NCBI GenBank assembly: GCA_024449565.1
Contig: GCA_024449565.1_4810.1
DNA: 64,000 bases
Strand: one strand, 5' to 3'
DNA from: a phage
Numbering within the stretch: position 1 is the first letter of the stretch; each line of letters begins with the position of its first letter. The position numbers and the translations under genes were made by a program. The notes under the pieces are model-generated. The model saw only the letters and a list, made by a program, of their open reading frames with translations. It searched no databases and was not told where the DNA came from. Below are positions 13,047 to 44,242 of this stretch, piece by piece.

Positions 13047-13673
13047 ATGGTTAGCTTAAATCGTTTCTCGACTAGCGGCGACGTTATCGCAACTAAGACC
13101 GCCGACCTCGTTGCATTTTATAATGCAAATTCAGGTTCGAAGCCGATTAAAAAATTTGCGGACCGCCGGACCGCCGAGACTCGCGTAATCGCGCTAATCG
13201 AGTCCTTAAACGCGCTCGATGAGCCGTCCAACGAATCGCCAATCCCCGACGCGAAGCCGCGCGAGGAAGTGTCCAGCGATGTAAAAACGCATAAGGCGCG
13301 TGCGGTCGTTAAAAAGGCAGAGCCGACGCAGGAAGAACTCGACGCGATGAGCGATGAAGAGTATGAAGCCTTCGTTAAGAGCGGCTTAAACGATAGTGCA
13401 AATTGCGTAGTGCAAAATGGAACTCCTTCCCATCGCCGTTCGAATAGCGAAGGTATTGCAAAAAGTTGGGACAATAAGGAAGTGGCGCAAAAGCGTCTCA
13501 CCCGTAACGGCGTTATGGTCGAGGGTGTAGGAGAGTTCAAATCGGTCCGCGCAGCTTTCGCCGCGCTGGGATTACCGGATAGCAAGCACATTCGCTTCCG
13601 TATGAAGCTTAAGGAAGCTGGGCGCTTGAACTTCGAGTTCGGCAACAAGTCCTTTACCTTCCAGATTATCTAA
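13047..13673 (+). CDS. hypothetical protein
   Basis: AGGAG SD; 208 aa; contains two in-frame copies of the TAGTGCAAA(A)T motif. Confidence 0.5.
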   Translation: MVSLNRFSTSGDVIATKTADLVAFYNANSGSKPIKKFADRRTAETRVIALIESLNALDEPSNESPIPDAKPREEVSSDVKTHKARAVVKKAEPTQEELDAMSDEEYEAFVKSGLNDSANCVVQNGTPSHRRSNSEGIAKSWDNKEVAQKRLTRNGVMVEGVGEFKSVRAAFAALGLPDSKHIRFRMKLKEAGRLNFEFGNKSFTFQII

Positions 13674-29903: not shown

Positions 29904-30743
29904 ATGGCCGAAGCAATCAAAGTATTATCTAAAGAAGAAAAACAAGCCGCTGCAGCAGAACGTCGTCGCGTAGCTGAAGAAAAACGTTTGGCTAAAAAGA
30001 AAGAAGCCGAAGAAAAGCGCCAGAAGCGCGAACAGGAAAAACAAGCCAAGCGTGAAGAAGCCGCGCTGAAACGCAAGCAGGCTGCTGACGAGAAGGCTCA
30101 GAAGCGTGCTGAAGAAGCAGCTAAGAAAGCTAAAGAGCGTGCAGAAAAGGCCGCTGCTAAGAAAGCAGAGCGTGAAGCCGCTAAAGCAGCAAAAGAAATC
30201 GAAAAGGCAAAGGCTAAAGAAGAAGCCAAGCGCCTGAAAGCCGAGCAGGCTGCGGCCAAGAAAGCAGAGCGTGATCAAGCCCGTGCTGCAGCGAAGGCCG
30301 AAAAAGAGAAGGCCAAAGAAGAAGCTAAAGCGAAACGCAAGGCAGAGCGTGAAGCTGCTAAGATTGCGGCGAAAGAAGCTGCAGAACAGCAGAAAGAACA
30401 GCGTAAGAAAGAAGCTGAAGAACGTCGCAAAGCCATCGCAGAACGTAAGGCTGCTAAAAAGGCAAACGGTCAGCGTCGTGCAAAAGCCACTCACTTCATC
30501 TACACTGGCAATGGCCTGAGCCAGCCGCAAGAGCATTCCACCCGTGGACGCGTTCTGGCGGCGATCAAAGAAGGCGAAGTTGGCGTGGCACAGTCTATCG
30601 ATGAGCTGGGCGAAAAAGTTAAAGATCAACTGTTTGGCGCTTCCGTTCGCTCCTACCTGAGCAAGCTGGAAGAGATGGGACACATCGAGTTTGTCGATGT
30701 TGAATCCAACGACGATGCTGAAGACGGTGATCAAGCGGAATAA
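29904..30743 (+). CDS. Lys/Ala/Glu-rich low-complexity protein with structured C-terminal domain
   Basis: About 190 aa of KAE-rich sequence then an 85-aa C-terminal domain; preferred-codon usage unlike neighbours; own terminator. Confidence 0.55.
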   Translation: MAEAIKVLSKEEKQAAAAERRRVAEEKRLAKKKEAEEKRQKREQEKQAKREEAALKRKQAADEKAQKRAEEAAKKAKERAEKAAAKKAEREAAKAAKEIEKAKAKEEAKRLKAEQAAAKKAERDQARAAAKAEKEKAKEEAKAKRKAEREAAKIAAKEAAEQQKEQRKKEAEERRKAIAERKAAKKANGQRRAKATHFIYTGNGLSQPQEHSTRGRVLAAIKEGEVGVAQSIDELGEKVKDQLFGASVRSYLSKLEEMGHIEFVDVESNDDAEDGDQAE

Positions 30744-30771: not shown

Positions 30772-30798
30772 GACCCACACTTGATGTGGGTCTTTTTT
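30772..30798 (+). terminator. rho-independent terminator
   Basis: GACCCACAC-TTGA-TGTGGGTC hairpin followed by TTTTTT. Confidence 0.7.
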
Positions 30799-30877: not shown

Positions 30878-31873
30878 ATGAACATGAAACAACCTGTAAT
30901 GATTATCGGCGGCGGCTTGGCAGGACTTATTACCGCGTGTCACTTCCCGAACTCCATTGTGTACGAAGCAGGGGAACGAGCGCCACAGCACAAGGCGCTG
31001 CTACGCTTTCGCGGCGAAGAAGTAAGCCGTATTACCGGAATCCCTTTTAAGGCCGTGACAGTTGACAAGGCTGTGTATTTTCGCGGTAACTACTATAACG
31101 ACCATTGCCCAATCAACCTTGCCAATATGTATTCGATGAAGGTCACCAATCAGTTTGGTAGCCGTTCAATCATGAAGCTTAAAACTGCAACGCGTTATAT
31201 TGCGCCGGACGACTTCTATGATCAGCTTGTCGATAAACTGGGTGATCGCATATTCTTCAATACTCCGGTTGACACGCTTTGCGGCTATAGCGAGACGCCA
31301 ATCATCAATACATCGCCGCTGCCAGTCATGATGAAGCTGGCAGGAATTGATCAAAATATTGACTTTTCATTCGATAAAGCAAACATTCGCGTTTACCGCT
31401 TTAAGATTAAACGTAAGTGTGAACTGTATCAAACCATTTACTTTCCTGATTGCTCCGTCAGAACTTACCGTGCATCAATCACTGGCGACACATTGATCAT
31501 TGAAACAATTCCTTTGGTTAGCGTAAGTGAAGCCGCAGTTGAAGCCGCTGGCGGCATTACTCGTTACCGTGACATTAAGTTGCGTGCAGAAGTTGACGAA
31601 GTGTTGACGGCCTTTGGTCTTTCATGGAGTGACATTTCTCTCGAAGAAGTTGAAAAGGTCGACCAGAAGTATGGCAAGATTGTCGACATTCCGAAAGACT
31701 TGCGACACGCTCTACTCCTACAGCTGACCATGGATTTGAACGTATTCAGTGTCGGTCGATTCGCTACTTGGCGAAACATTTTGCTTGATGACGTTGCTCA
31801 TGACCTTGTTGAAGTTGAAAAACTCATCAAAGCAAATAACTATCAAAAATTTGCTTATATTGCTAATAAATAA
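30878..31873 (+). CDS. FAD/NAD(P)-binding Rossmann-fold oxidoreductase
   Basis: N-terminal dinucleotide-binding motif VMIIGGGLAGL; 331 aa. Confidence 0.45.
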   Translation: MNMKQPVMIIGGGLAGLITACHFPNSIVYEAGERAPQHKALLRFRGEEVSRITGIPFKAVTVDKAVYFRGNYYNDHCPINLANMYSMKVTNQFGSRSIMKLKTATRYIAPDDFYDQLVDKLGDRIFFNTPVDTLCGYSETPIINTSPLPVMMKLAGIDQNIDFSFDKANIRVYRFKIKRKCELYQTIYFPDCSVRTYRASITGDTLIIETIPLVSVSEAAVEAAGGITRYRDIKLRAEVDEVLTAFGLSWSDISLEEVEKVDQKYGKIVDIPKDLRHALLLQLTMDLNVFSVGRFATWRNILLDDVAHDLVEVEKLIKANNYQKFAYIANK

Positions 31874-31874
31874 T

Positions 31875-31919
31875 TTGCTTTCTGCTTCAATGGGCGTATA
31901 CTTTAATCATTGAAGCAGA
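31875..31919 (+). promoter_or_regulatory. promoter TTTGCT-16-TATACT inside a 12-bp inverted repeat (operator-like)
   Basis: TCTGCTTCAATG (31881-31892) and CATTGAAGCAGA (31908-31919) flank the -10; no T-run, so not a typical terminator. Confidence 0.4.
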
Positions 31920-31939
31920 ACTCATAAGAGGAAACGAAA

Positions 31940-32386
31940 ATGAAACGCATCACTGGAATCGCGCTTGCCGCAACTGCTATTCTCGGAACCATGTATATGG
32001 AAGCGACTGAAGCTGCCATCCGTACTTCCGATTCAATCGCTGTTTACGATTGCGAAGCGATGGACGGCAAGACCGCAGCGACGACTGGCGCAACAATTAC
32101 CACTTACATCGGTGTGAACGAGCAGGAAGGTCTGAATATTCAGATTCAGGGATTCACCGGAAAAGGCGCCAACCGGACTCCGTGGATGCAGCGTTTCACT
32201 TTCGTTCAGCCTCGTTCGACTGGCGACTTTATTAACCTGATTGGTGAAAACCGTTCTGGTGCAGAAATCTTTACCTCAATGAGTTCTAATAATGAACCAA
32301 AGAAAAGTTTTCAGTTGCTTTATAACGCACAATTCGTTTATCATTGCACCTTCTCTGGTGATCAGCAACTAGTGAATTACCGTTAA
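31940..32386 (+). CDS. secreted or periplasmic protein
   Basis: N-terminal signal-peptide-like segment MKRITGIALAATAILGT; AGAGGA SD. Confidence 0.45.
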   Translation: MKRITGIALAATAILGTMYMEATEAAIRTSDSIAVYDCEAMDGKTAATTGATITTYIGVNEQEGLNIQIQGFTGKGANRTPWMQRFTFVQPRSTGDFINLIGENRSGAEIFTSMSSNNEPKKSFQLLYNAQFVYHCTFSGDQQLVNYR

Positions 32387-32399
32387 TAGGATAATTAAA

Positions 32400-33209
32400 A
32401 TGAAAGTTGAATTAATTCGATACACCCAAGATGCACTTGACCTTTTGCTGGAAACAAAGAACACGCGCATGACTGGTAAGCCAGTCTCTGAGATGACAGA
32501 ATCAGAGAAGCAAGAGCACTGGCGCTACATGCTTGATACAATCAAGTCTCCTTTTGACTTTGTGGACTATATCTTTGATATCACAGCTGTATCAAAGAAC
32601 ATGACCCATCAGATGGTACGCACACGCACAGGCGCATATCAAGAACGCACCAGCCGCGCTCAGGAGTCGTCTGCATTTGATGCGATTCGTCCGAAGGCAT
32701 TCGAGCACCCTTCTGACTGCAATGATGAAAATGCATTTGATGATGTGCACATAAGAAATCACTCATTGGCAGAGAAGTGGGATGATGCGATGGCCACGAT
32801 TGACGCTCTATACCAAGAGCTTCGCGCGGCTGGCGCAGAGATTCAAGATGCACGTGCCGTGTTGCCTTCTAATATGCAAACGCATATCATGGCAAAGTTC
32901 AACTTGCGCACTCTACAACAAATGGCCTCTAACCGCTTGTGCACGCGTACTCAAGGCGAGTATCAAGAAGTATTCCGTGCAATGGTTGCGGAAGTCCTTA
33001 AGGTGCACCCGTGGGCCAATCCTTTACTACAGCCGCAGTGCATCGGTATGGGTAAGTGTGCATTTCCTCGTCACGGTAAGGCCCATTGCCCATGGTATCG
33101 TGATTGGATGGATACGACTGCACAGCAAGAAGAATTGCGCATTCAGTTTTGGGATGCCGCGCCAATCACCAACAATCCAGTTGCTAAAGATGGAGTATCA
33201 AAAGGATGA
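32400..33209 (+). CDS. ThyX-like flavin-dependent thymidylate synthase homolog with non-canonical motif
   Basis: SPFDFVDYIFDI ... THQMVRTRTGAYQERTSR aligns with the ThyX core, but the RHR-X7-S signature reads RTR-X7-TS. Confidence 0.5.
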   Translation: MKVELIRYTQDALDLLLETKNTRMTGKPVSEMTESEKQEHWRYMLDTIKSPFDFVDYIFDITAVSKNMTHQMVRTRTGAYQERTSRAQESSAFDAIRPKAFEHPSDCNDENAFDDVHIRNHSLAEKWDDAMATIDALYQELRAAGAEIQDARAVLPSNMQTHIMAKFNLRTLQQMASNRLCTRTQGEYQEVFRAMVAEVLKVHPWANPLLQPQCIGMGKCAFPRHGKAHCPWYRDWMDTTAQQEELRIQFWDAAPITNNPVAKDGVSKG

Positions 33210-34078
33210 GCATTAAAAACAGCGAAATCTTAAATGTATTCGACCTTGACGGAACGCTGTTTGATGACCGTTGGCGCTTAGACCGCATTAAGGTGGCAGG
33301 TCCGTTGTCAGACTATGATGATTATCACAGCGGTATTGGTTATGATCAGTTCTATCCTCACATTGCATCAGCAGTAGAGTCGGCATCTCTTCGCGGTGAG
33401 GCGGTTGAATATTGGACTGCAAGGCCAGAAAAATACAGACAAGTGACTTTTGAACGTCTGGACAATGTTTTTCCTTTTGATGAATTTACAATCAAGATGA
33501 GAGACTATGGCGACAAACGTCCATCAACTATTATGAAATCTGCATGGCTATCGCACGCATTGCGGCACGGCGATTATCGAATCATCAACGTATTCGACGA
33601 CCGACAAGACGTACTCGCGCGGATGCAAGATGAAGCATTGTATTATAATTCCGTTGCTCAAAATAAAATCGCTTTTACATTTAATCTTTGCAAGGCAGGT
33701 GAAGTGGTGCAACAATTAGCAATTGATCCAAGCGCAACAGGGCAAGAAGAGACTAAGGCTGTGGAAGTTGAACAATCTCCGGCAACTGCCGCCGATATTC
33801 TTGATGCAATGGCAGCAACCTTCCGTGAGCGCAACGCTGTCTATGGCGATAACGCTGTGATGGTAGGTCAGGTTATGCAAGTGCTTTTCCCTAATGGCGT
33901 GACGTTGAAAACGCCGGAAGACTACCACATGTGGCATCTGTTCGAGCTTAAGATTGTCAAGCTTACACGCTTCGCAATCAGCGGCCTGAAGCACGAAGAC
34001 TCTATACACGATGATGGTGTTTACAGCGCCATGTGTGAACGTCTTGTTAACACCCATAATATTAATTTCAATAAATAG
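33206..34078 (+). CDS. HAD-superfamily phosphatase with C-terminal domain of unknown function
   Basis: HAD motif I VFDLDGTLFDD near N-terminus; ATGA overlap with the ThyX-like gene. Confidence 0.55.
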   Translation: MSIKNSEILNVFDLDGTLFDDRWRLDRIKVAGPLSDYDDYHSGIGYDQFYPHIASAVESASLRGEAVEYWTARPEKYRQVTFERLDNVFPFDEFTIKMRDYGDKRPSTIMKSAWLSHALRHGDYRIINVFDDRQDVLARMQDEALYYNSVAQNKIAFTFNLCKAGEVVQQLAIDPSATGQEETKAVEVEQSPATAADILDAMAATFRERNAVYGDNAVMVGQVMQVLFPNGVTLKTPEDYHMWHLFELKIVKLTRFAISGLKHEDSIHDDGVYSAMCERLVNTHNINFNK

Positions 34079-34125
34079 TTTACTTGTGCGTTTCGATGAG
34101 TTATATTTATCTCATCGAAACGAAG
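34079..34125 (+). promoter_or_regulatory. promoter TTTACT-17-TATATT with perfect 12-bp inverted-repeat operator
   Basis: CGTTTCGATGAG (34089-34100) and CTCATCGAAACG (34111-34122) flank the -10; related element at 41010-41055. Confidence 0.5.
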
Positions 34126-34143
34126 TCCAAAAAGGATAAATAA

Positions 34144-34827
34144 ATGAAAAAAGTAATTGTTGTAACTGGCTGCAATTCCGGTCTTGGTAAGTCCATTTTT
34201 GACACCCTTGGCGCTTACGGTCATGAAGTTGTCGGTATTGATTTGGAGAACGGCTATGACATCCGTAACGCGAAACAGATGAAAGAGCTTCTCTCTCAAT
34301 ACGACGTAGAAGGCTTGATCAACTGCGCTGGCGTCAACTCCAACAACTGGTTCGAAGATGTTAACTACGAAGAGTTCAATCGCGTTATGCACACCAACGC
34401 CTTCTCTTTCGTCAACACGACTCAGGCCGCGCTGAAAAGTCTTATTGACAACAAAGGTTTTGTGATCAACATCGTTTCCAACGCTGCGCATATTCCTATG
34501 ACGTCCAGCTTGTGTTATAATGCTTCCAAGGCTGCTGCGCTCATGATTAGCAAGCAGATGGCTCACGAGCTTACGCCTAAATACGGGATCACGGTATTCT
34601 CTATTAGTCCTAACAAGCTACGTGGTACTGGCATGTCCAAACAGATTGAAGATGCTGTTTGCGCGACTCGCGGCTGGACTCCTGAATACGCTGCTGAATA
34701 CCAGAAAAAGGCACTGATGAATGGATTGGAGACTGAGCCGCAAGTAATTGCTGACTTCATTCGCCATATCTTAATTACGGGCGCATGGCGCTTTATGTCT
34801 GGTACTGATATTCCATTTGGGAAATAA
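34144..34827 (+). CDS. short-chain dehydrogenase/reductase (classical SDR)
   Basis: TGCNSGLG cofactor motif, NCAG, and YNASK catalytic Tyr/Lys. Confidence 0.7.
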   Translation: MKKVIVVTGCNSGLGKSIFDTLGAYGHEVVGIDLENGYDIRNAKQMKELLSQYDVEGLINCAGVNSNNWFEDVNYEEFNRVMHTNAFSFVNTTQAALKSLIDNKGFVINIVSNAAHIPMTSSLCYNASKAAALMISKQMAHELTPKYGITVFSISPNKLRGTGMSKQIEDAVCATRGWTPEYAAEYQKKALMNGLETEPQVIADFIRHILITGAWRFMSGTDIPFGK

Positions 34828-34830
34828 ATC

Positions 34831-35001
34831 ATGACTATCAAAGTTGTTGTAGAAGTGATTGGCGACGTAGCAGAAGTGAAGATTGATCAAGAAGGTGTTG
34901 GATTTGAAGTAATAAGAATCGAAAACGCAAAGATTAACCACGAGCGCGTCGGTTCCATTGAGACTTATTCCATCGAAGGCAACACAGTAATTAATCAATA
35001 A
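34831..35001 (+). CDS. small protein (56 aa, below track cutoff)
   Basis: ATG 3 nt after the SDR stop; MTIKVVVEVIGDVAEVKIDQEG ... Confidence 0.3.
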   Translation: MTIKVVVEVIGDVAEVKIDQEGVGFEVIRIENAKINHERVGSIETYSIEGNTVINQ

Positions 35002-35021
35002 TATTTAATTAAGGAAACAAA

Positions 35022-35573
35022 ATGCCACATTTTAAAATTGAACAAATCGCCCTGTCAATCCCAGATGCTCAACGCGCTCAGGACTTCCTGGCTAAAATAG
35101 GCCTGACAGAATGGTTCCATGATCACGTTGTTGCTACTGGTCGCGTATTTGAAGCTGATTACTTTAAAGGTCAGCGCGGCGATTGCACCAATGAAGCTAA
35201 CTTGCGCTTCAACTATCAGGCTGGCAACGGTACTGATGGCGGCGCTGGTAAGCCTCTTGAGCTTGAAATCCTTGACTATACAAAAGGTTGCAACTGGATT
35301 CGCGAAAACATCGAATACATCGATGCGCACGACAATCAGGTTAGCCATCTTGGTATGCACGTGACTGCCGCTGAACTTGCTGAATGGCGCAAGTTCTTTA
35401 AAGAAGAAGGCATTCAGGTTGCGCAGGAAGTTGTGACCGACTCTCACACCAACCCAAACATTGCTGGTCAGCGTCGTTACAACTATGTAATCTTTGATAC
35501 GCGTGAAATCATCGGCGTTGATTTGAAGTTTATCGTGCGGTTGAATCAAGACGGTACTCCGTACACTGCATAA
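35022..35573 (+). CDS. VOC-family (glyoxalase/dioxygenase-like) protein
   Basis: Two beta-alpha-beta-beta-beta-like modules (KIEQIALSIPDAQRAQDFLAKIGL and HLGMHVTAAELAEWRKFF); AAGGAAA SD. Confidence 0.5.
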   Translation: MPHFKIEQIALSIPDAQRAQDFLAKIGLTEWFHDHVVATGRVFEADYFKGQRGDCTNEANLRFNYQAGNGTDGGAGKPLELEILDYTKGCNWIRENIEYIDAHDNQVSHLGMHVTAAELAEWRKFFKEEGIQVAQEVVTDSHTNPNIAGQRRYNYVIFDTREIIGVDLKFIVRLNQDGTPYTA

Positions 35574-35589
35574 CGAATCTTGAATCTGT

Positions 35590-35615
35590 GGCCGTCCTAA
35601 TGGGCGGCCTTTTTG
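35590..35615 (+). terminator. putative intrinsic terminator
   Basis: GGCCGTCC-TAAT-GGGCGGCC hairpin followed by TTTTT. Confidence 0.5.
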
Positions 35616-35627
35616 TAGGAGGCCAAT

Positions 35628-36170
35628 GTGTTATTTCTCCCTTATGACTTCGAAACAACAGGATTAACCGTGCACCCGAAAGCGCCGCTTGGAATGCAGC
35701 CGCGCCCTATTGAATTTGCAGGGTTGTTGACGGACGGCAAAGAGATTCTTGAAACGTTCGAGTTCATAATTAATCCTGAAATTGTGATTGAAGAAATCAT
35801 CACAAAGATTACCGGATTGACAAATGAAGACCTTGAGTGCAATCCACCATTCATCAATTTTGTCCCGCAGCTAAAAGAAATCTTCAAGAAGACGGATGCC
35901 ACTATCGCGCACAACCATGCGTTCGATAAAAACATTCTTGATTATGCACTACAGCGCGAAGGACTTACGCTTGATGATGTTAATTTTCCAGAAATAAACA
36001 TTTGTACAGTTGAGCAAACCTTGCCTATTTTTGGCCGAAGAGTTAAGCTTCAAGAGCTGTATGAATTATATTTCGGAAAATATGAACAGAAACACCGTGC
36101 ATTAGACGACGTAATATTACTGCACAAAGTCTGCCAACAAATTGGCGTATATGACATCTGGAGTAAATAA
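35628..36170 (+). CDS. DnaQ-like 3'-5' exonuclease (DEDDh)
   Basis: Exo I DFETTG, Exo II AHNHAFD, Exo III HRALDD; GGAGG SD; GTG start. Confidence 0.75.
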   Translation: MLFLPYDFETTGLTVHPKAPLGMQPRPIEFAGLLTDGKEILETFEFIINPEIVIEEIITKITGLTNEDLECNPPFINFVPQLKEIFKKTDATIAHNHAFDKNILDYALQREGLTLDDVNFPEINICTVEQTLPIFGRRVKLQELYELYFGKYEQKHRALDDVILLHKVCQQIGVYDIWSK

Positions 36171-39067
36171 TGTTTCCACAATTGAGAGTTCGCAGCGGTT
36201 ACACGTTCAAAGAAGTTTATGGACGGCATCCTGAAATTATAGCACGGCTCAAAGAGTTGGGCTGCGAAGTCGCGGCATTAGTTGATAACAACACATGGGG
36301 TCACGTTCGCTGGGAAAAGGAATGCCAGAAAAATGATATTAAGCCTATGTTTGGAATGGAGATTCCAATCATCGACCCTGATGCGGACCCGAAAAAGGGA
36401 TTCAAACCGAAGGCTTGGATATTGGCCCTTGACTTAAAATCTTTTTACAACGCTACAACACTTGCAACGCAGCGCGGTGGACTTACCCGTGCAGAGTTCG
36501 GTGCGCTTGATGGCGTCGTTAAATTCTGTGGCGGTGCCGTGGAGTTGCTGCGGCCAGAGGACTACGACTATATAGACGTCAACCCATCATCGTTCCTTTT
36601 GGCAAAGCGCCAGGCATTGGCTCATCGTAGCAGTGGAAGGCCGCTGGTTTTAACCGGATACAACCACATGCCTTCACCTGAGCACGTTGACTTTGCTTAT
36701 GCGTGGGAAGTGCGCGACACGGTCAAGCCGCACTGCATCGTTGACGCGGAAGACTTGCGAAAACAGCTTAAAGGCATCTTGACTGAAGATGAACTTGATC
36801 AGGCAACGGCCAATGCTGTTGACATAGCAAACGGCATAGTCGGACTTGACCTGAAATTACGCAAGGCACCGATTATTCACCTTGCTGGTGACATGGTAAA
36901 GCTTGCTCGCGAGGGTATGGAGTACCGTCTAAAAGCAGGTCACATCAAAGAATGGACTCAGGAATACGAGGACCGCTTCAACGAAGAAATTCACCAGATT
37001 CAGCTGAAAGATTTCGACTCATACTTTCTGGTGGTAGCGGACCTTGTACGATTCGCAAAAACAAAAATGCTCGTCGGTCCTGCGCGCGGCTCATCGGCTG
37101 GTTCACTTGTTTGCTATTGCCTCGGCATCACGGAAGTGGACCCAATCCCGTATAAGCTGCTGTTTGCCCGATTCATCGACGTAAGCCGCGCCGACCTTCC
37201 TGACATCGACATCGACTTTGAAGATACCAAACGCTATATGGTGTTTGATTATCTTAAAGAGAAATATGGCGAAATGAACGTTGCAAAGCTTGGCAACATC
37301 AACACGCTTAAGGCCAACTCAGTAATGGCTCAGGTTGGTAAGAAGTTCAACATTGGATATCACGAAACAGCCAACATCAAAAACGCATTGCTTGAATACT
37401 CATCCGGTGACGCCCGTTATGGTCACGGTCTGGAGGATACCTTTGCAACAACGACCACGGGCCAAGAGTTCGTGGCGAAATATCCTGACGCCGCGCGATG
37501 CATGGGTGACCTTGAGATTCACCCTTCCCACACTGGCGTTCACGCAGCGGGAATCATTGTGTGTAATGACCCAATCTCTGATTACTGTACTGTAACTGCA
37601 GAAGGGATTGCGCAAATCGATAAGCCTGACAGCGAATACCTCAACCTTTTGAAGCTTGATGCGCTGGGCCTTCGTACTCTCGGTATTATTTCTGATACAG
37701 GCGTTATTGATGCTGAAACGCTCTACGGAATCAAGCTTGATGATCAAAGCGTCCTTGACATTCTTAACGAAAACAAGATGTCAGGCATCTTCCAGTTTGA
37801 AGGTGATGCTGTACGCTCAGTAACAAACTTTGTTCATGTCGATAACTTTAACAAAATCGACAACCTGACAGCTTTGGGTCGACCTGGCCCGTTGTCATCC
37901 GGTATGGCCCAGAAATACATTGAACGCGCGGCAGGGCGTGCGCCGATTGAATACGACGTGCCGCAGCTTGAGCCGTACTTAAAAGAGACTTACGGCGTGT
38001 TTCTTTACCAAGAGCAAATCATGGCCGTGGTTAAAGAGATTGGTTCATTTGACTGGGCGAAAACGTCCGCTGTGCGTAAGGCGATGTCAGGCCGTAAGGG
38101 TGAAGAATACTTTAACAAGCTTGGCGAGGACTTTGTTGCAGGCGCAATCAATAACGGCGTACCGGAAGCGGATGCAAGAAAGCTTTGGCAAGCAATGGCT
38201 ACGTTCGGGTCATGGGGCTTTAACAAGTCGCACTCCGTGTCATACGCGGTCGTGACCTACTGGACATTGTGGCTTAAGCGACACTACCCGTTGGAATTTG
38301 CCGCTGCCTGCTTACGCGCTGCTAAGGACGAAGACCAGACGATTGCGATATTACGTGAACTTGCGAAGGAAGGCGTGGATTACGTTCCAATCGACCCTGA
38401 TCACTCTTCGATGAACTGGACCATCGCGAACGGAAAGCTAATCGGCGGCATTATGAACGCGAAAGGGTACGGAATGGTGAAGGCGATGAAGTACATCGAA
38501 GCGCGTGAAGCCGGAACCTTAACGCAGAAGCAAAAGGACGCATTGGCCAATGCTGAAGTAAAATATGGCGACCTTACAGAGATGCACACAAAGTTCGGCT
38601 GGGCGTATAATGACCCGTATCTGATTGGCGTGACGTCCGGCGCTTCAATACGCCAGATGAAGGAAGTCGGTGATGACGAGCGCGCAATAGTAATCGGCAA
38701 GTTGACAAAGAAAGTGCTTGCGGACGAGAACGAAGCAACACGCATCCGTAAACGACTTGAGCGCGGCATCTATACAAAGCAAGGCAAGCTTAAAAAGGGT
38801 CTTCAAGCTGATGGCCGCTACGCAGAGTTTGACCAGTACGGGAACAAGCTTGAGACTCAGTTCATCGACCTTATGTGCAAAGACGACTCGACCGACTCGC
38901 CAATGCGCTTCAGGATTCGTCCAGAGAAGTTCCAGAAGTACGGGAAGTACATCGCTGAAAACGTCGGGAACGGCGCATTCTTCCTGATGAAAGGTCGTAA
39001 GCTTGAAGGCATTGACATGTTCATCGTTGACGTGATCAAACAGGTGTATCCAGATGGCAACAAATAA
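36170..39067 (+). CDS. dnaE: DNA polymerase III alpha-type (DnaE family) replicative polymerase
   Basis: N-terminal PHP-like region; GPARGSSAGSLVCYCLGITEVDP ... DIDIDF matches the DnaE catalytic core. Confidence 0.9.
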   Translation: MFPQLRVRSGYTFKEVYGRHPEIIARLKELGCEVAALVDNNTWGHVRWEKECQKNDIKPMFGMEIPIIDPDADPKKGFKPKAWILALDLKSFYNATTLATQRGGLTRAEFGALDGVVKFCGGAVELLRPEDYDYIDVNPSSFLLAKRQALAHRSSGRPLVLTGYNHMPSPEHVDFAYAWEVRDTVKPHCIVDAEDLRKQLKGILTEDELDQATANAVDIANGIVGLDLKLRKAPIIHLAGDMVKLAREGMEYRLKAGHIKEWTQEYEDRFNEEIHQIQLKDFDSYFLVVADLVRFAKTKMLVGPARGSSAGSLVCYCLGITEVDPIPYKLLFARFIDVSRADLPDIDIDFEDTKRYMVFDYLKEKYGEMNVAKLGNINTLKANSVMAQVGKKFNIGYHETANIKNALLEYSSGDARYGHGLEDTFATTTTGQEFVAKYPDAARCMGDLEIHPSHTGVHAAGIIVCNDPISDYCTVTAEGIAQIDKPDSEYLNLLKLDALGLRTLGIISDTGVIDAETLYGIKLDDQSVLDILNENKMSGIFQFEGDAVRSVTNFVHVDNFNKIDNLTALGRPGPLSSGMAQKYIERAAGRAPIEYDVPQLEPYLKETYGVFLYQEQIMAVVKEIGSFDWAKTSAVRKAMSGRKGEEYFNKLGEDFVAGAINNGVPEADARKLWQAMATFGSWGFNKSHSVSYAVVTYWTLWLKRHYPLEFAAACLRAAKDEDQTIAILRELAKEGVDYVPIDPDHSSMNWTIANGKLIGGIMNAKGYGMVKAMKYIEAREAGTLTQKQKDALANAEVKYGDLTEMHTKFGWAYNDPYLIGVTSGASIRQMKEVGDDERAIVIGKLTKKVLADENEATRIRKRLERGIYTKQGKLKKGLQADGRYAEFDQYGNKLETQFIDLMCKDDSTDSPMRFRIRPEKFQKYGKYIAENVGNGAFFLMKGRKLEGIDMFIVDVIKQVYPDGNK

Positions 39068-41070: not shown

Positions 41071-41334
41071 ATGGTACGCATCCTTGAACGTTACAAAAAT
41101 GAATCTACTGGCGCAATCGCTTTCAAACGTCTTTTGGTCAAAGAAATTGACGGTATGTTCCGCGTTGTTAAAGAGTTTGATTATGGCAACGGTGCTGGGG
41201 TGAATACCGTTATTATGCCTGGTATCAAGGCATATAAAACATTAAAAGGCGCTGAGAAGGCTTTGGCGGCTTGGAAGTCTGAACGTTATCAAATGACCCG
41301 TGTTGAAGGTCTAATGCAAGAAGGTAAAATATGA
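41071..41334 (+). CDS. hypothetical protein
   Basis: 87-aa ORF after promoter; AGAGGAA SD. Confidence 0.45.
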   Translation: MVRILERYKNESTGAIAFKRLLVKEIDGMFRVVKEFDYGNGAGVNTVIMPGIKAYKTLKGAEKALAAWKSERYQMTRVEGLMQEGKI

Positions 41335-41582
41335 GCAACAAAGTATTGTTAATTGGTCCGCCAGCTTGCGGCAAAACGACTAGCGCAAAGAATATTGCTG
41401 AAGTCATGGGATTGAATAACATTTACGACATAGGAAAGGGTGGAGAAGACAATTTTAAGTCCGCACTCAAAGATGACAAGGAAGGTCTTTATGTCACTGT
41501 GAAATTACCGCGCGGCATTCGCCGTGAACAATTTGATATTGTAATTGAAGTCAACAGAGGATTTATCGATGTCAGATATTAA
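41331..41582 (+). CDS. small P-loop NTPase-like protein
   Basis: Walker A GPPACGKTT near N-terminus; only 83 aa. Confidence 0.35.
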   Translation: MSNKVLLIGPPACGKTTSAKNIAEVMGLNNIYDIGKGGEDNFKSALKDDKEGLYVTVKLPRGIRREQFDIVIEVNRGFIDVRY

Positions 41583-43103: not shown

Positions 43104-43622
43104 ATGATAGAAAGAATTGTACCGCTCCTGAAGATTCTGGCCCTTGTCGGCGCGTTTGCCGCTGGATCATACGTTGAAGACCTTAAGCAAACCAACGCAT
43201 CACTGGCCAAGGATAATCAATATCTGACATCGCTTAATGAGCGTAAGGACAAGATAAATGCACTCGAAGAGCAAATTGCAACTTTACAGGTTGAATCGGC
43301 ATCGGCATATGAGAAGGGTCGCCAGGAAGCGCAACTGGTTGCTGATGACACTATTGCTCGTTACAAGTCTGGGAATATCAAGCTGCGCGAGCAACTCAGC
43401 TGCTCCCGTGAGTTACTCAGGAGTGTGCCCGACTCTGCGACCACTGGACGCCTCTCTATCCCAGAAGGAAACTGTGGACTATCAGAAGAAGATGTCAGAT
43501 TTCTTGTTCAGTTCGCCGCAGAAACAAATCGATTAAAAGAGAAAGTTAATAGCTTGATTGATACTTATAATCAGGCTAAAATAAAAATCGATCAATTCAA
43601 TGCATCAAAGGAAAATAAATGA
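43104..43622 (+). CDS. Rz-like inner-membrane spanin (i-spanin)
   Basis: N-terminal TM segment IVPLLKILALVGAFAAGSYV then coiled-coil periplasmic domain; contains an embedded +1-frame lipoprotein ORF. Confidence 0.5.
   Translation: MIERIVPLLKILALVGAFAAGSYVEDLKQTNASLAKDNQYLTSLNERKDKINALEEQIATLQVESASAYEKGRQEAQLVADDTIARYKSGNIKLREQLSCSRELLRSVPDSATTGRLSIPEGNCGLSEEDVRFLVQFAAETNRLKEKVNSLIDTYNQAKIKIDQFNASKENK
43309..43536 (+). CDS. Rz1-like outer-membrane lipoprotein spanin (o-spanin), embedded
   Basis: +1 frame inside the i-spanin gene: basic n-region, hydrophobic core, lipobox-like ISSC, Pro-containing mature peptide; start uncertain (43258, 43309 or 43345). Confidence 0.4.
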   Translation: MRRVARKRNWLLMTLLLVTSLGISSCASNSAAPVSYSGVCPTLRPLDASLSQKETVDYQKKMSDFLFSSPQKQID

Positions 43623-44242
43623 AACAGATTTATGCAAACATTCGCCATTGGGCTTCTGACCGTAACATCATCCAAGGTTGCGACCTTAAGGACCAATACC
43701 CGAAGCTTATCAGCGAGTTTGGGGAGTTAACCGACCACGTTGATCAACTCCATGACCTTGTGTTCTTCGACCCTGAAATTGGCTATACAGAGCAGGCCAT
43801 CTGTGACTTGCAGGCCGCAATTAAGGACGACATTGGCGATTGCCTTGTTGTGTTGACCATCCTGGCAGCGCAAAACGGTACTGAAATCGAAAACATTAAT
43901 GGCGGCGGTTGCGCTGATAAAGGTGCTCACCCTCATTCATTTATCCTTCGCCTGGCAAAGACCCTTGGACGACTTGGTGATGCTATTGCCAAGAATCAGA
44001 CCATGGATATTGACGTCACCATCATGGCCGCAGTCGATTACCTTTCCGGCGTAGCTCATGATTATGGCCTTCGCTTATCCGACTGTGCGCAAGCGGCCTA
44101 CGAAGACATCAAGGACCGCAAAGGTGTCATGTACAACGGAACGTTCATCAAATCTACTGATCCAGCTTATGAGCACTCCTGCAAAATGGTAAAGAAGCTG
44201 GAACTTGAAGACCGTGTGATCAGAGAAGTTACAGGACAATAA
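43619..44242 (+). CDS. MazG-like nucleoside triphosphate pyrophosphohydrolase
   Basis: EFGEL ... DIGDCLVVLTILAAQNG resembles the MazG E-x-x-E and helix motifs. Confidence 0.5.
   Translation: MKQIYANIRHWASDRNIIQGCDLKDQYPKLISEFGELTDHVDQLHDLVFFDPEIGYTEQAICDLQAAIKDDIGDCLVVLTILAAQNGTEIENINGGGCADKGAHPHSFILRLAKTLGRLGDAIAKNQTMDIDVTIMAAVDYLSGVAHDYGLRLSDCAQAAYEDIKDRKGVMYNGTFIKSTDPAYEHSCKMVKKLELEDRVIREVTGQ

What the first reader, a model, noticed from the sequence alone, without database searches (positions are those of the whole stretch)
30878..35573. Enzyme cluster inside the replication operon: FAD oxidoreductase, ThyX-like, HAD phosphatase, SDR, VOC
Five enzymes plus a secreted protein are encoded back-to-back with their own promoter/operator elements, directly upstream of the exonuclease and DnaE polymerase. 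This does not match any phage nucleotide-modification pathway I can name from memory. A flavin-dependent ThyX-like enzyme beside a phosphatase and redox enzymes suggests a pathway making a modified pyrimidine nucleotide, or a small-molecule pathway.
Basis: partly seen in the sequence, partly recalled or inferred. Interest (0 to 1): 0.8.

Follow-up and report, generated by a model that had tools for sequence, protein, structure and literature searches.

The report
Candidate phage thymine-hypermodification gene module
A conserved set of phage enzymes next to the DNA polymerase, built around an odd thymidylate-synthase-like flavoenzyme and a sugar-mutase-like flavoprotein, is the best candidate for making the sugar-decorated thymine recently found in related phages, and for explaining why these coliphages resist restriction enzymes.

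Summary
The window is a Wifcevirus (E. coli myovirus, about 95% identical to Bas99/FEC19). Positions 30878-35573 encode, on the + strand and between two strong terminators:
- a UGM-like FAD protein
- a signal-peptide protein
- a ThyX-family protein
- a HAD phosphatase fused to DUF6378
- a classical SDR
- a 56-aa ORF
- an MMCE-like VOC protein

The exonuclease and DnaE genes follow directly.

This is not a loose collection of auxiliary genes. The order UGM-like, ThyX-like, HAD/DUF6378, [SDR, VOC], exonuclease, DnaE recurs in 43 of 43 non-redundant viral loci, down to 30-40% identity and across several phage lineages. SDR and VOC are gained or lost together. The signal-peptide protein occurs only in Wifcevirus.

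The ThyX subfamily keeps its dUMP and FAD contacts but always lacks His53, His59, His79 and Tyr91, and it misses NCBI's thyX cut-off.

The sister genus Pbunavirus carries the three-enzyme core. A 2025 preprint reports sugar-like thymidine hypermodifications there (362 and 390 Da, about 25% of T) with no genes assigned. Wifcevirus resists restriction "without any known protection mechanism".

My best reading, at about 0.55 confidence, is that this is the biosynthetic module for a sugar-derived C5 substituent on thymine. The chemistry, and how TG specificity arises, remain inferred.

The parts
30772..30792 (+). Intrinsic terminator closing the upstream unit (after the Lys/Ala/Glu-rich 279-aa gene). 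It is the left boundary of the cluster.
   Evidence: 8-bp stem with 5 GC pairs, followed by TTTTTT. Annotated as a terminator in phage Mansfield.
30878..31873 (+). UGM-like FAD-binding flavoprotein (331 aa, phrog_4828). Relatives annotate the start at 30884. First core member of the module.
31880..31920 (.). 13-nt perfect inverted repeat in the gap before the signal-peptide gene. Its loop holds a -10-like TATACT.
31940..32386 (+). 148-aa protein with an N-terminal signal-like segment. It is a Wifcevirus-specific insertion and not part of the conserved module.
   Evidence: No Pfam or PHROG hit. tblastn finds it only in the six Wifcevirus loci of 87.
32400..33209 (+). Non-canonical ThyX-family flavoenzyme (269 aa). 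Second core member.
   Evidence: Pfam Thy1 scores 104 bits. NCBIfam thyX equivalog scores 80.3, below the 87.9 cut-off. The motif reads RTRTGAYQERTSRA rather than RHR..S..SxRY. Subfamily signature: H53 to I, H59 to F, H79 to T/N/S, Y91 to A/V/I, while R78, R80, R90, R147, R174, Q75, N163 and R165 are kept. A four-Cys set occurs in 21 of 39 members.
33206..34078 (+). HAD phosphatase (PNKP-phosphatase type; DLDGT and DD motifs) fused to a C-terminal helical DUF6378 domain. Third core member. Its start overlaps the ThyX stop.
   Evidence: Pfam HAD_PNKP scores 33.5 bits against a 27.6 cut-off. phrog_4889. 14 of 18 homologous C-terminal domains match DUF6378, and Cronobacter phage Ss1 has DUF3310 instead. 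The two domains are fused in 49 loci and are separate adjacent ORFs in 21.
34089..34122 (.). 15-nt inverted repeat (93% complementary) in the gap before the SDR gene. It spans a -10-like TATATT.
34144..34827 (+). Classical short-chain dehydrogenase/reductase (227 aa). TGxxxGxG, NCAG, Ser and YxxxK motifs are intact. Accessory member, paired with VOC.
   Evidence: Pfam adh_short 1e-31. Best PDB hits are FabG at about 1e-12. Every NCBIfam hit falls below its cut-off. Present together with VOC in 30 of 43 non-redundant loci.
34831..35001 (+). 56-aa ORF, weakly similar to the small ORF58 that sits between ThyX and HAD in Pbunavirus F8.
   Evidence: BLASTP: 39% identity over 28 aa, E 1e-4 for the single comparison.
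35022..35573 (+). VOC-fold protein of methylmalonyl-CoA-epimerase type (183 aa). Accessory member, paired with SDR.
   Evidence: Pfam Glyoxalase_4 scores 18.6 bits, below the 27 cut-off. The family profile finds no PDB sequence match. AF2 pLDDT 93.6. Foldseek finds 3gm5 (putative MMCE) at 2.3e-7, then S. coelicolor MMCE and HPPD. The phage-only family has 669 clusters.
35590..35609 (+). Strong intrinsic terminator. Right boundary of the cluster.
   Evidence: 8-bp stem with 7 GC pairs, then a T-run. Annotated as a terminator in Mansfield.
35628..39067 (+). DnaQ-like 3'-5' exonuclease (35628-36170) and DnaE-type polymerase (36170-39067). These are the invariable downstream neighbours of the module.
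   Evidence: Pfam RNase_T 1e-21. Synteny in 43 of 43 loci.
43619..44242 (+). MazG-like nucleotide pyrophosphohydrolase. A possible pool-editing accessory, not specific to the module.
   Evidence: Annotated as such in Bas99 and Mansfield. Also present in Pbunavirus, but widespread in unrelated phages.

Best explanation
The cluster is a conserved phage module that puts a sugar-derived substituent on C5 of uracil/thymine in the phage's own DNA, protecting it from restriction.

Composition. The core is three proteins: a non-canonical ThyX, a UGM-like flavoprotein, and a HAD phosphatase with a DUF6378 domain. Most lineages, including this Wifcevirus, add an epimerase-like VOC protein and an SDR ketoreductase as a tailoring pair.

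Proposed route (all steps are inferred, none is shown):
1. The ThyX-like enzyme binds dUMP and activates C5 as ThyX does.
2. It has lost the His that stacks on folate/NADPH, so it takes its carbon unit or its reducing equivalents through the partner flavoprotein rather than from methylene-tetrahydrofolate. The partner's closest fold, UGM, works through a covalent FAD-N5-sugar iminium.
3. This gives a 5-(polyhydroxyalkyl) or 5-(glycosyl-oxymethyl) deoxyuridine nucleotide.
4. The HAD phosphatase removes a phosphate carried in by a phosphorylated sugar donor.
5. VOC and SDR epimerise and reduce a keto form of the side chain.

The product reaches DNA through the adjacent DnaE/exonuclease replicase or through a still unidentified DNA-level step.

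What is shown: the gene content, the synteny, the co-occurrence, the folds and the residue signature. What comes from the literature: the modification in Pbunavirus and the RM resistance of Wifcevirus.
For: 1. Co-conservation.
- UGM-like relatives occur in 512 IMG/VR stretches.
- Among 43 non-redundant loci that reach the polymerase, ThyX is present in 43 and HAD/DUF6378 in 42 by tblastn. The remaining locus, Cronobacter phage Ss1, has a HAD-DUF3310 ORF.
- The gene order is identical in 42. The one apparent exception reflects overlapping ORF boundaries.
- SDR and VOC are both present in 30 loci, both absent in 12, and split in 1.
- The loci include 48 from lineages that lack the PB1-type helicase genes.
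- HAD and DUF6378 are fused in 49 loci and are separate neighbours in 21.

2. In GenBank phages, the UGM-like protein and the close ThyX subfamily have almost the same host-genus counts. Pseudomonas 292 and 292, Escherichia 27 and 27, Serratia 9 and 9, Xanthomonas 6 and 6, Rhizobium 8 and 10. Other phage ThyX proteins are at most 30% identical.

3. The ThyX subfamily keeps its dUMP and FAD contacts but replaces H53, H59, H79 and Y91 in all 39 members. It scores below the NCBIfam thyX equivalog cut-off.

4. Pbunavirus F8 and 14-1 carry the three-gene core. Their virion DNA contains novel thymidine derivatives of 362 and 390 Da, described as an 'erythrose/threose sugar alcohol' and a 'circularized aldopentose'. 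These replace about a quarter of T at TG, and no biosynthetic genes were assigned (PMC12191111).

5. [quoted passage not shown] The window holds 14 EcoRI, 8 EcoRV and 8 EcoKI sites, so site avoidance is not the reason.

6. Elimination. The complete Bas99 annotation lists no other metabolic enzyme apart from a MazG-like protein and a ligase.

7. Precedent. Phage SP-15 carries 5-(4',5'-dihydroxypentyl)uracil. According to the titles of Walker & Mandel 1978 (refs 42-43 of PMC5977210), it is labelled from ribose and made as a nucleoside triphosphate. SP-15 encodes two Thy1-family proteins. The divergent one (gp130) is translationally coupled to a FabG-like SDR (gp129), with a HAD protein (gp135) nearby.

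8. My own arithmetic: 5-(2,3,4,5-tetrahydroxypentyl)-2'-deoxyuridine is C14H22N2O9, 362.3 Da, the F8 mass.
Against: - No experiment ties any of these genes to a modification.
- Wifcevirus DNA composition is unknown.
- TG-motif specificity in Pbunavirus implies a sequence-reading step on DNA, and no module protein has a recognisable DNA-binding or base-flipping domain.
- F8 and 14-1 make different adducts with the same gene set at this locus (78-98% protein identity).
- SDR and VOC are absent from the only phages where the adduct was measured.
- The ThyX-like protein retains every dUMP- and FAD-binding residue, so it may still be a working dTMP synthase.
- Wifcevirus also resists enzymes such as EcoRV, whose site has no TG. 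A Pbunavirus-like TG modification alone would not explain that phenotype.
- SP-15 proteins show no pairwise similarity to the window proteins.
Confidence: 0.55

Rival explanations
1. Ordinary nucleotide-supply module. The ThyX makes dTMP for very fast replication. The UGM-like protein is simply a flavin or NAD(P)H oxidoreductase that keeps ThyX reduced. The HAD/DUF6378 protein is a nucleotidase that balances pools. SDR and VOC are unrelated or folate/pterin-related helpers.
For: - The genes sit inside the replication operon next to the polymerase.
- Many phages encode ThyX.
- All dUMP- and FAD-binding residues are kept.
- The Pfam Thy1 score is strong.
- Wifcevirus is reported to replicate unusually fast (PMC11990801).
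- Three quarters of the T in Pbunavirus DNA is canonical.
Against: - The histidines H53, H59 and H79 and Tyr91 are lost in every member. From my own knowledge of T. maritima ThyX, H53 stacks on folate/NADPH.
- The protein scores below the thyX equivalog cut-off.
- Canonical ThyX needs no partner flavoprotein, yet co-occurrence with the UGM-like family is near perfect.
- An MMCE-like VOC protein and an SDR have no role in dTMP synthesis but are inherited as a pair inside the module.
- This reading leaves the Pbunavirus hypermodification with no candidate genes.
Confidence: 0.22
2. A sugar-nucleotide or small-molecule pathway unrelated to DNA. For example, it could make a furanose sugar or other metabolite to remodel host LPS or O-antigen or to manipulate host metabolism, with ThyX merely adjacent.
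For: - The best structural match of the first protein is UDP-galactopyranose mutase.
- An SDR with an epimerase-like protein recalls the logic of deoxysugar pathways.
- Wifcevirus depends on O-antigen, and a signal-peptide protein lies in the cluster.
Against: - No glycosyltransferase or nucleotidyltransferase is annotated anywhere in the genome.
- The module is conserved across hosts with unrelated envelopes (Pseudomonas, Rhizobium, Xanthomonas, Cronobacter).
- It is always welded to ThyX and the replicase.
- The signal-peptide protein is restricted to Wifcevirus.
Confidence: 0.08
3. No functional coupling. The genes are independent auxiliary genes kept together only by vertical inheritance of a replication-gene block.
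For: - The whole exonuclease-DnaE block is shared by these lineages, so synteny could partly be inherited.
- Other genes are inserted between members in some loci: small ORFs, homing endonucleases, a Pyr_excise glycosylase.
Against: - Order and presence persist down to 30-40% protein identity, while flanking genes (Dda, the KAE-rich protein) are lost.
- SDR and VOC show all-or-none behaviour (30 both, 12 neither, 1 split).
- HAD and DUF6378 are found both fused and split.
- In the Rhizobium jumbo phage, which is not PB1-like, UGM-like, ThyX and HAD again lie within 7 kb.
Confidence: 0.08

Closest known systems
Flavin-dependent thymidylate synthase ThyX (Pfam Thy1, TIGR02170)
   Same: Same fold family (Thy1 at 104 bits). 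The arginines, Gln and Glu that hold dUMP and the Asn and Arg that hold FAD are conserved. It probably works like ThyX in activating C5 of dUMP next to a reduced flavin.
   Different: Below the NCBIfam equivalog cut-off. The RHR motif reads RTR/RNR. H53, H59 and Y91 are replaced in every member. Half the members carry an extra four-Cys site. It is always accompanied by a UGM-like flavoprotein, which canonical ThyX does not need.
UDP-galactopyranose mutase (Glf/UGM)
5-hmdU-based thymidine hypermodification pathways (phages M6, ViI, SP10, PhiW-14, PaMx11; PMC8989533)
   Same: The biological outcome is the same: partial, sequence-selective replacement of T by a bulky C5-substituted base that blocks nucleases. 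A thymidylate-synthase-family enzyme starts the pathway. A flavoprotein can take part, as with the PaMx11 gp47 lyase.
   Different: Those pathways use a ThyA-type dUMP hydroxymethylase, a P-loop 5-hmU DNA kinase and aGPT-Pplase transferases, and they add amino acids or polyamines. No such gene is annotated in the Wifcevirus genome. The Pbunavirus study also says known modification genes are missing. Here the starter is ThyX-type and the adduct looks sugar-derived.
Pbunavirus F8 / 14-1 hypermodified thymidine (Yee et al. 2025 preprint, PMC12191111)
   Same: Sister genus with the same UGM-like, ThyX-like, HAD/DUF6378, exonuclease, DnaE arrangement. This module is the most plausible genetic basis for those adducts.
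   Different: Pbunavirus lacks SDR, VOC and the signal-peptide gene. Its DNA is cut at EcoRI sites, whereas BASEL reports Wifcevirus insensitive to every RM system it tested except EcoP1_I. The Wifcevirus product or its motif is therefore probably different.
5-(4',5'-dihydroxypentyl)uracil of Bacillus phage SP-15 (PMC5977210)
   Same: A C5-pentyl polyol chain on uracil. By the titles of refs 42-43, it derives from ribose and is made at the nucleotide level. SP-15 has a divergent Thy1-family protein coupled to a FabG-like SDR, plus a HAD protein. A tetrahydroxypentyl analogue has the F8 mass (my arithmetic).
   Different: No detectable pairwise similarity to the window proteins. No UGM-like gene was seen in the SP-15 regions I read. 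The SP-15 pathway is itself unsolved.
Methylmalonyl-CoA epimerase-type VOC enzymes and FabG-type SDRs
   Same: The folds and the SDR catalytic motifs match. Together they could epimerise next to a carbonyl and then reduce it.
   Different: The VOC protein is below Pfam threshold and its family profile finds no PDB sequence match. The SDR is below every NCBIfam subfamily cut-off. Substrates are unknown.

Membership tests
ThyX (flavin-dependent thymidylate synthase) | Pfam Thy1 domain above the gathering threshold | tested here: met
   104.3 bits against a 24.8 cut-off.
ThyX (flavin-dependent thymidylate synthase) | NCBIfam TIGR02170 thyX equivalog cut-off | tested here: not met
   80.3 bits against an 87.9 cut-off.
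ThyX (flavin-dependent thymidylate synthase) | ThyX signature motif RHRxxSxxxxSxR(Y) | tested here: not met
   The window has RTRTGAYQERTSRA. His79 is T/N/S and Tyr91 is A/V/I in all 39 subfamily members.
ThyX (flavin-dependent thymidylate synthase) | dUMP-binding residues (R78, R80, R90, R147, R174, Q75) and FAD-binding residues (N163, R165), in T. maritima numbering | tested here: met
   All are conserved in the alignment.
ThyX (flavin-dependent thymidylate synthase) | His53, which stacks on folate/NADPH over the flavin (role recalled from T. maritima structural work) | tested here: not met
   Invariant Ile in all 39 members.
ThyX (flavin-dependent thymidylate synthase) | Catalyses dUMP + CH2-H4folate + NADPH to dTMP | not testable with these tools
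   Needs an enzyme assay or thyA complementation.
UDP-galactopyranose mutase | UGM three-domain flavoprotein fold | tested here: met
UDP-galactopyranose mutase | Sequence-family membership (Pfam GLF / NAD_binding_8) | tested here: not met
   No Pfam or NCBIfam hit at E of 0.1 or below. The family profile finds only the GxGxxG segment in PDB sequences.
UDP-galactopyranose mutase | Conserved UDP- and galactose-binding Arg, Tyr and Trp residues, and mutase activity | not testable with these tools
   No residue-level structural alignment was available. Many invariant Arg and Lys residues exist, but their placement is unknown.
HAD phosphatase (PNKP-phosphatase type) | Pfam HAD_PNKP above threshold, plus the DxDxT nucleophile motif and the DD motif | tested here: met
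   33.5 bits against 27.6. DLDGT at residues 13-17 and FDDRQD are read from the translation.
DUF6378 | Pfam PF19905 match in the C-terminal domain | tested here: inconclusive
   The window domain itself has no hit at E of 1 or below. 14 of 18 aligned homologues match, best 1.3e-5.
Classical SDR | adh_short domain, TGxxxGxG, NxAG, Ser and YxxxK | tested here: met
   Pfam 1e-31. TGCNSGLG, NCAG, IVSNAA and YNASK are read from the translation.
FabG (3-oxoacyl-ACP reductase), as annotated in relatives | NCBIfam FabG subfamily or equivalog cut-offs | tested here: not met
   75 bits against cut-offs of 222-296.
VOC superfamily, methylmalonyl-CoA epimerase type | Paired beta-alpha-beta-beta-beta modules forming a single-chain VOC fold | tested here: met
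   AF2 pLDDT 93.6. Foldseek finds 3gm5 at 2.3e-7, then MMCE and HPPD.
VOC superfamily, methylmalonyl-CoA epimerase type | Sequence-family threshold (Pfam Glyoxalase_4) | tested here: not met
   18.6 bits against a 27 cut-off. The family profile finds no PDB sequence match.
Known thymidine hypermodification system (5-HMUDK + aGPT-Pplase) | ThyA-type dUMP hydroxymethylase, P-loop 5-hmU DNA kinase and aGPT-Pplase genes | tested here: inconclusive
   None is annotated in the complete Bas99 or Mansfield genomes, and the Pbunavirus study reports none. I ran no dedicated HMM search of the roughly 50 small hypothetical ORFs.
Phage DNA hypermodification module (functional class) | Non-canonical nucleoside in virion DNA that depends on these genes | not testable with these tools
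   Shown only for the related Pbunavirus, without gene assignment. Never measured for Wifcevirus.

The most novel reading that the evidence does not exclude
The ThyX-like and UGM-like flavoenzymes together catalyse a new reaction: flavin-N5-iminium-mediated C-C alkylation of C5 of dUMP with a sugar, for example a pentose delivered as PRPP or ribose-5-phosphate, in place of the one-carbon unit from folate. The product would be a 5-(polyhydroxypentyl)deoxyuridine nucleotide. HAD dephosphorylates it and VOC and SDR tailor it. This would be the long-missing route to the SP-15-type 'pentyl-uracil' bases and to the Pbunavirus adducts, and it would define a large phage-only family of sugar-to-nucleobase alkylating enzymes with about 1000 clusters at 50% identity.
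Probability: 0.15. Interest if true: 0.93.

Novelty: new variant of a known kind. Interest (0 to 1): 0.8.

Why it matters
Pbunaviruses are among the most used therapeutic Pseudomonas phages, and Wifceviruses are now part of the BASEL reference collection. Pbunavirus DNA carries an adduct with no assigned genes, and Wifcevirus shows a restriction resistance with no known mechanism.

Naming a compact, testable gene set turns both puzzles into knockout and reconstitution experiments. The set is three core genes plus two tailoring genes.

If the module is responsible, several things follow:
- It adds a thymine-hypermodification route that uses a ThyX-type rather than a ThyA-type starter and needs no hmU kinase or aGPT-Pplase.
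- It is found in more than 500 viral contigs and about 1000 protein clusters.
- It gives a genomic marker for predicting modified DNA. Such DNA affects sequencing, cloning, defence-system sensitivity (END nucleases, type IV enzymes) and phage engineering.
- It may reveal new flavoenzyme chemistry relevant to the unsolved SP-15 base.

Tried and rejected
- Sequence-only identification of the FAD protein, the VOC protein and the HAD fusion against PDB gave nothing useful. Only structure prediction and fold search resolved them.
- Site avoidance does not explain RM resistance. EcoRI, EcoRV and EcoKI sites are present at 14, 8 and 8 copies.
- The sigma-70 promoter scan was not above the shuffled expectation, so I do not claim internal promoters.
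- Comparing F8 (362 Da) with 14-1 (390 Da) showed identical gene content at this locus and only point divergence. It gave no gene-level explanation for the different adducts.
- I looked for informative domain fusions in long ORFs of the 87 loci. All were spurious upstream starts or variable linkers.
- I looked for further enzymes recurrently inserted in the module. Only sporadic ones appeared: Pyr_excise, a second HAD, DUF4406 and a methyltransferase.
- Direct similarity between the window proteins and SP-15 gp9, gp129, gp130, gp131 and gp135 was absent. Only a family-level parallel remains.
- MazG-like as a module-specific partner is rejected, because it is widespread in unrelated phages.
- Literature searches for Wifcevirus DNA modification, for ThyX together with UGM in phages, and for later gene assignment of the Pbunavirus adduct found nothing.
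- The two 1978 SP-15 papers are not held in the library, so I cite only their titles, as listed in PMC5977210.

Full report
**What the window is.** The region 30878-35573 is 92-95.5% identical to 29 genomes of the genus Wifcevirus, which are E. coli/Shigella myoviruses of 66-72 kb. The best match is ManiWeber_Bas99. The ORFs I list below coincide with the annotated CDSs of Bas99 and Mansfield.

**The genes.** All lie on the + strand.
- 31940-32386, 148 aa. It has a signal-like N-terminus and no family hit.
- 32400-33209, 269 aa. Pfam Thy1, 9e-30.
- 33206-34078, 290 aa. HAD_PNKP phosphatase with intact DLDGT and DD motifs, plus a C-terminal helical domain whose homologues match DUF6378.
- 34144-34827, 227 aa. 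A classical SDR with all catalytic motifs. Its nearest solved relatives are FabG at about 1e-12, and it falls below every NCBIfam subfamily cut-off.
- 34831-35001, 56 aa.
- 35022-35573, 183 aa. It has only a sub-threshold Glyoxalase_4 hit, and its family profile finds no PDB sequence match. Its model (pLDDT 93.6) matches methylmalonyl-CoA epimerases and HPPD domains.

Strong intrinsic terminators lie at 30772-30792 and 35590-35609. The DnaQ-like exonuclease and DnaE follow. Two near-perfect inverted repeats occupy the intergenic gaps. Sigma-70-like promoters are not enriched.

**Co-conservation.**
- tblastn finds the UGM-like protein in 362 GenBank phages. These are Pbunavirus, Wifcevirus and PB1-like phages of Serratia, Pantoea, Xanthomonas and Luteibacter, and also the 42-kb Cronobacter podophage Ss1 and 200-kb Rhizobium jumbo phages.
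- The close ThyX subfamily (more than 35% identity) has nearly the same host distribution. All other phage ThyX proteins are at most 30% identical.
- A scan of IMG/VR confirmed 512 relatives, and I fetched 80 loci.
- I collapsed the loci at 90% UGM-like identity. Among the 43 clusters that extend to the polymerase, ThyX is present in 43 and HAD/DUF6378 in 42. The missing one, Ss1, has a HAD-DUF3310 ORF.
- The order UGM-like, ThyX, HAD, DUF6378, SDR, VOC, exonuclease, DnaE is kept in 42. The single exception reflects overlapping ORF boundaries.
- SDR and VOC are both present in 30 clusters, both absent in 12 (including Pbunavirus), and split in one.
- HAD and DUF6378 are fused in 49 loci and are adjacent separate genes in 21.
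- 48 of the 87 loci come from lineages that lack the PB1-type Dda helicase and Lys/Ala/Glu-rich protein.
- The 148-aa signal-peptide gene is confined to Wifcevirus.
- The UGM-like family is large and sharply bounded. It has 1136 representatives at 50% identity, 1002 of them below 1e-10, all single-domain of about 290-340 aa. The top hits from the separate 90%-identity search came from contigs of at most about 73 kb.
- The VOC family has 669 clusters, again from phage-sized contigs.

**The ThyX is not canonical.**
- Aligned with T. maritima ThyX (tool alignment) and with canonical phage and archaeal-virus ThyX proteins, all 39 non-redundant module ThyX proteins keep R78, R80, R90, R147, R174 and Q75, which bind dUMP, and N163 and R165, which bind FAD.
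- All 39 replace H53 with Ile, H59 with Phe, H79 with Thr/Asn/Ser, and Y91 with Ala/Val/Ile.
- From my own knowledge of T. maritima ThyX structures, H53 stacks on the folate or NADPH ring over the flavin. Its invariant loss points to a changed carbon or electron donor rather than a changed nucleotide substrate. That last step is inference.
- The protein scores 80.3 bits against the NCBIfam thyX equivalog cut-off of 87.9.
- Half the subfamily has four co-varying cysteines, C181, C214, C220 and C230.

**Evidence from the literature.**
[quoted passage not shown] The exception is EcoP1_I (PMC11990801).
- The window contains 14 EcoRI, 8 EcoRV and 8 EcoKI sites, so site avoidance is not the explanation.
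- A 2025 preprint (PMC12191111) reports LC-MS of Pbunavirus F8 and 14-1 virion DNA. [quoted passage not shown]
- These derivatives replace about a quarter of T. Enzymes with TG in their sites fail to cut, while EcoRI, HindIII, XbaI, DraI and BsaI cut.
- That paper names no biosynthetic genes. It stresses that Pbunavirus lacks the known ones.
- Later papers in the library add nothing on this point.
- F8 and 14-1 carry the UGM-like, ThyX-like, HAD/DUF6378, exonuclease, DnaE arrangement.
- The complete Bas99 annotation contains no other metabolic enzyme except a MazG-like pyrophosphatase and a ligase. The rest is structural genes, replication genes and about 50 small hypothetical ORFs.
- By elimination, then, if the modification is phage-encoded, this module is where the chemistry is.

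**How it may work.** Everything in this section is inferred.
- ThyX carries a methylene as an FAD-N5 iminium to C5 of dUMP and then reduces the exocyclic methylene (summarised in PMC8989533).
- From my own knowledge, UGM forms a covalent FAD-N5 to C1 sugar iminium.
- A ThyX that has lost its folate-stacking histidine and is always paired with a UGM-like flavoprotein fits a reaction in which the group installed on C5 comes from a sugar.
- My arithmetic: reductive alkylation of dU with an aldopentose gives 5-(2,3,4,5-tetrahydroxypentyl)-dU, C14H22N2O9, 362.3 Da. That is the F8 mass.
- A keto-hexulose analogue, C15H22N2O10 at 390.3 Da, fits 14-1.
- The same masses also fit O-linked 5-hmdU ethers or glycosides: 258 + 122 - 18 = 362, and 258 + 150 - 18 = 390. 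The masses cannot tell the two linkages apart.
- A phosphorylated donor such as PRPP, ribose-5-P or erythrose-4-P would give the HAD phosphatase a role.
- An MMCE-like VOC (proton abstraction next to a carbonyl) with an SDR ketoreductase is a plausible epimerise-then-reduce tailoring pair.

**A family-level precedent.** Phage SP-15 carries 5-(4',5'-dihydroxypentyl)uracil. By the titles of Walker & Mandel 1978, it is labelled from ribose and formed as a nucleoside triphosphate (refs 42-43 in PMC5977210; the papers themselves are not held). SP-15 encodes two Thy1-family proteins. The divergent one, gp130, is translationally coupled to a FabG-like SDR, gp129, with a HAD protein, gp135, nearby. 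There is no pairwise sequence similarity to the window proteins, so this is an analogy and not homology.

**What does not fit.**
- TG specificity requires a step that reads DNA sequence, and none of the module proteins has a recognisable DNA-binding or base-flipping domain. The PNKP-type HAD domain is at least of a kind that acts on DNA ends, and DUF6378 is uncharacterised.
- F8 and 14-1 differ in product but not in gene content at this locus.
- SDR and VOC are absent where the adduct was measured.
- BASEL reports Wifcevirus insensitive to every RM system it tested except EcoP1_I. That panel included EcoRV, whose site has no TG. F8 DNA is cut at EcoRI sites. The Wifcevirus product, its motif or an additional anti-restriction function must therefore differ.
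- The ThyX-like enzyme could still make dTMP.

For these reasons I put 0.55 on the general model and only about 0.15 on the specific sugar-alkylation chemistry.

**Rivals.**
- An ordinary dTMP-supply module (0.22). The invariant loss of the histidines, the obligatory partner flavoprotein and the VOC/SDR pair all count against it.
- A DNA-unrelated sugar or small-molecule pathway (0.08). No transferase is annotated, and the module is conserved across hosts with unrelated envelopes.
- Mere inherited synteny (0.08). The all-or-none SDR/VOC pattern, the fused and split HAD-DUF6378 forms, and the recurrence in an unrelated Rhizobium jumbo phage count against it.

**Verdict.** The finding is a new variant of a known kind: a phage thymine-hypermodification pathway with an unprecedented enzyme set. 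It is directly testable in available model phages (Bas98-101, F8, 14-1).

Noticed in passing
window 32400-33209 (residues C181, C214, C220, C230 of the ThyX-like protein): Four cysteines co-vary perfectly, present in 21 of 39 subfamily members and absent together in the rest. This suggests a Zn or Fe-S site near the active-site Arg179. Mycobacteriophage Nova's ThyX-like protein has a similar Cx5C...C tail.
   Followed up: partly
window 31880-31920 and 34089-34122: Two intergenic inverted repeats (13 nt at 100%, 15 nt at 93%). Each encloses a -10-like hexamer (TATACT, TATATT) just upstream of the signal-peptide gene and the SDR gene. They could be operators or RNA hairpins.
   Followed up: partly
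window 31940-32386: A 148-aa protein with a signal-like N-terminus is inserted between the UGM-like and ThyX genes only in Wifcevirus. It has no family match and may be a moron.
   Followed up: partly
window 41331-41582: An 83-aa ORF with a P-loop (GPPACGKTT) and weak PHROG similarity to thymidylate kinase and clamp-loader families. Gene models here differ between this window, Bas99 and Mansfield. It might be a small nucleotide kinase.
   Followed up: no
window 13047-13673: A 208-aa protein of unknown function (phrog_4730). In 24 loci of non-PB1 lineages its homologue lies 0.4-5 kb upstream of the UGM-like gene, although here it is 18 kb away.
   Followed up: partly
loci L067, L023, L084, L052 and others (IMG/VR contigs), between the ThyX and exonuclease genes: Occasional extra genes sit inside the module in other lineages. 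They include a Pyr_excise-type DNA glycosylase (10 loci), a second HAD_PNKP with a Zn-ribbon insert (8 loci), DUF4406, a SAM methyltransferase, and unannotated proteins of 278 and 381 aa.
   Followed up: partly
whole window: Skewed site counts: GATC 97 against 246 expected, XbaI 1 against 18, BsaI 1 against 26, but HindIII 52 against 18. TA is depleted (0.69) and GC enriched (1.30).
   Followed up: no
L094:11026-12911 and L091:5512-9289 (Bacillus phage SP-15): In the dihydroxypentyl-uracil phage SP-15, a FabG-like SDR (gp129) overlaps the start of the divergent Thy1-family gp130. The other ThyX (gp9) sits beside a dNK kinase, with a cupin sugar-phosphate isomerase and an FMN-binding protein a few genes downstream.
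   Followed up: partly
window 29904-30743: A 279-aa Lys/Ala/Glu-rich protein (phrog_4765) lies immediately upstream of the module. It has a possible winged-helix C-terminus, is conserved in PB1-like lineages only, and may be a DNA-coating or histone-like protein.
   Followed up: no
window 43619-44242: A MazG-like pyrophosphohydrolase is shared with Pbunavirus. It could edit the dNTP pool in favour of a modified nucleotide, but the family is widespread in unrelated phages.
   Followed up: partly
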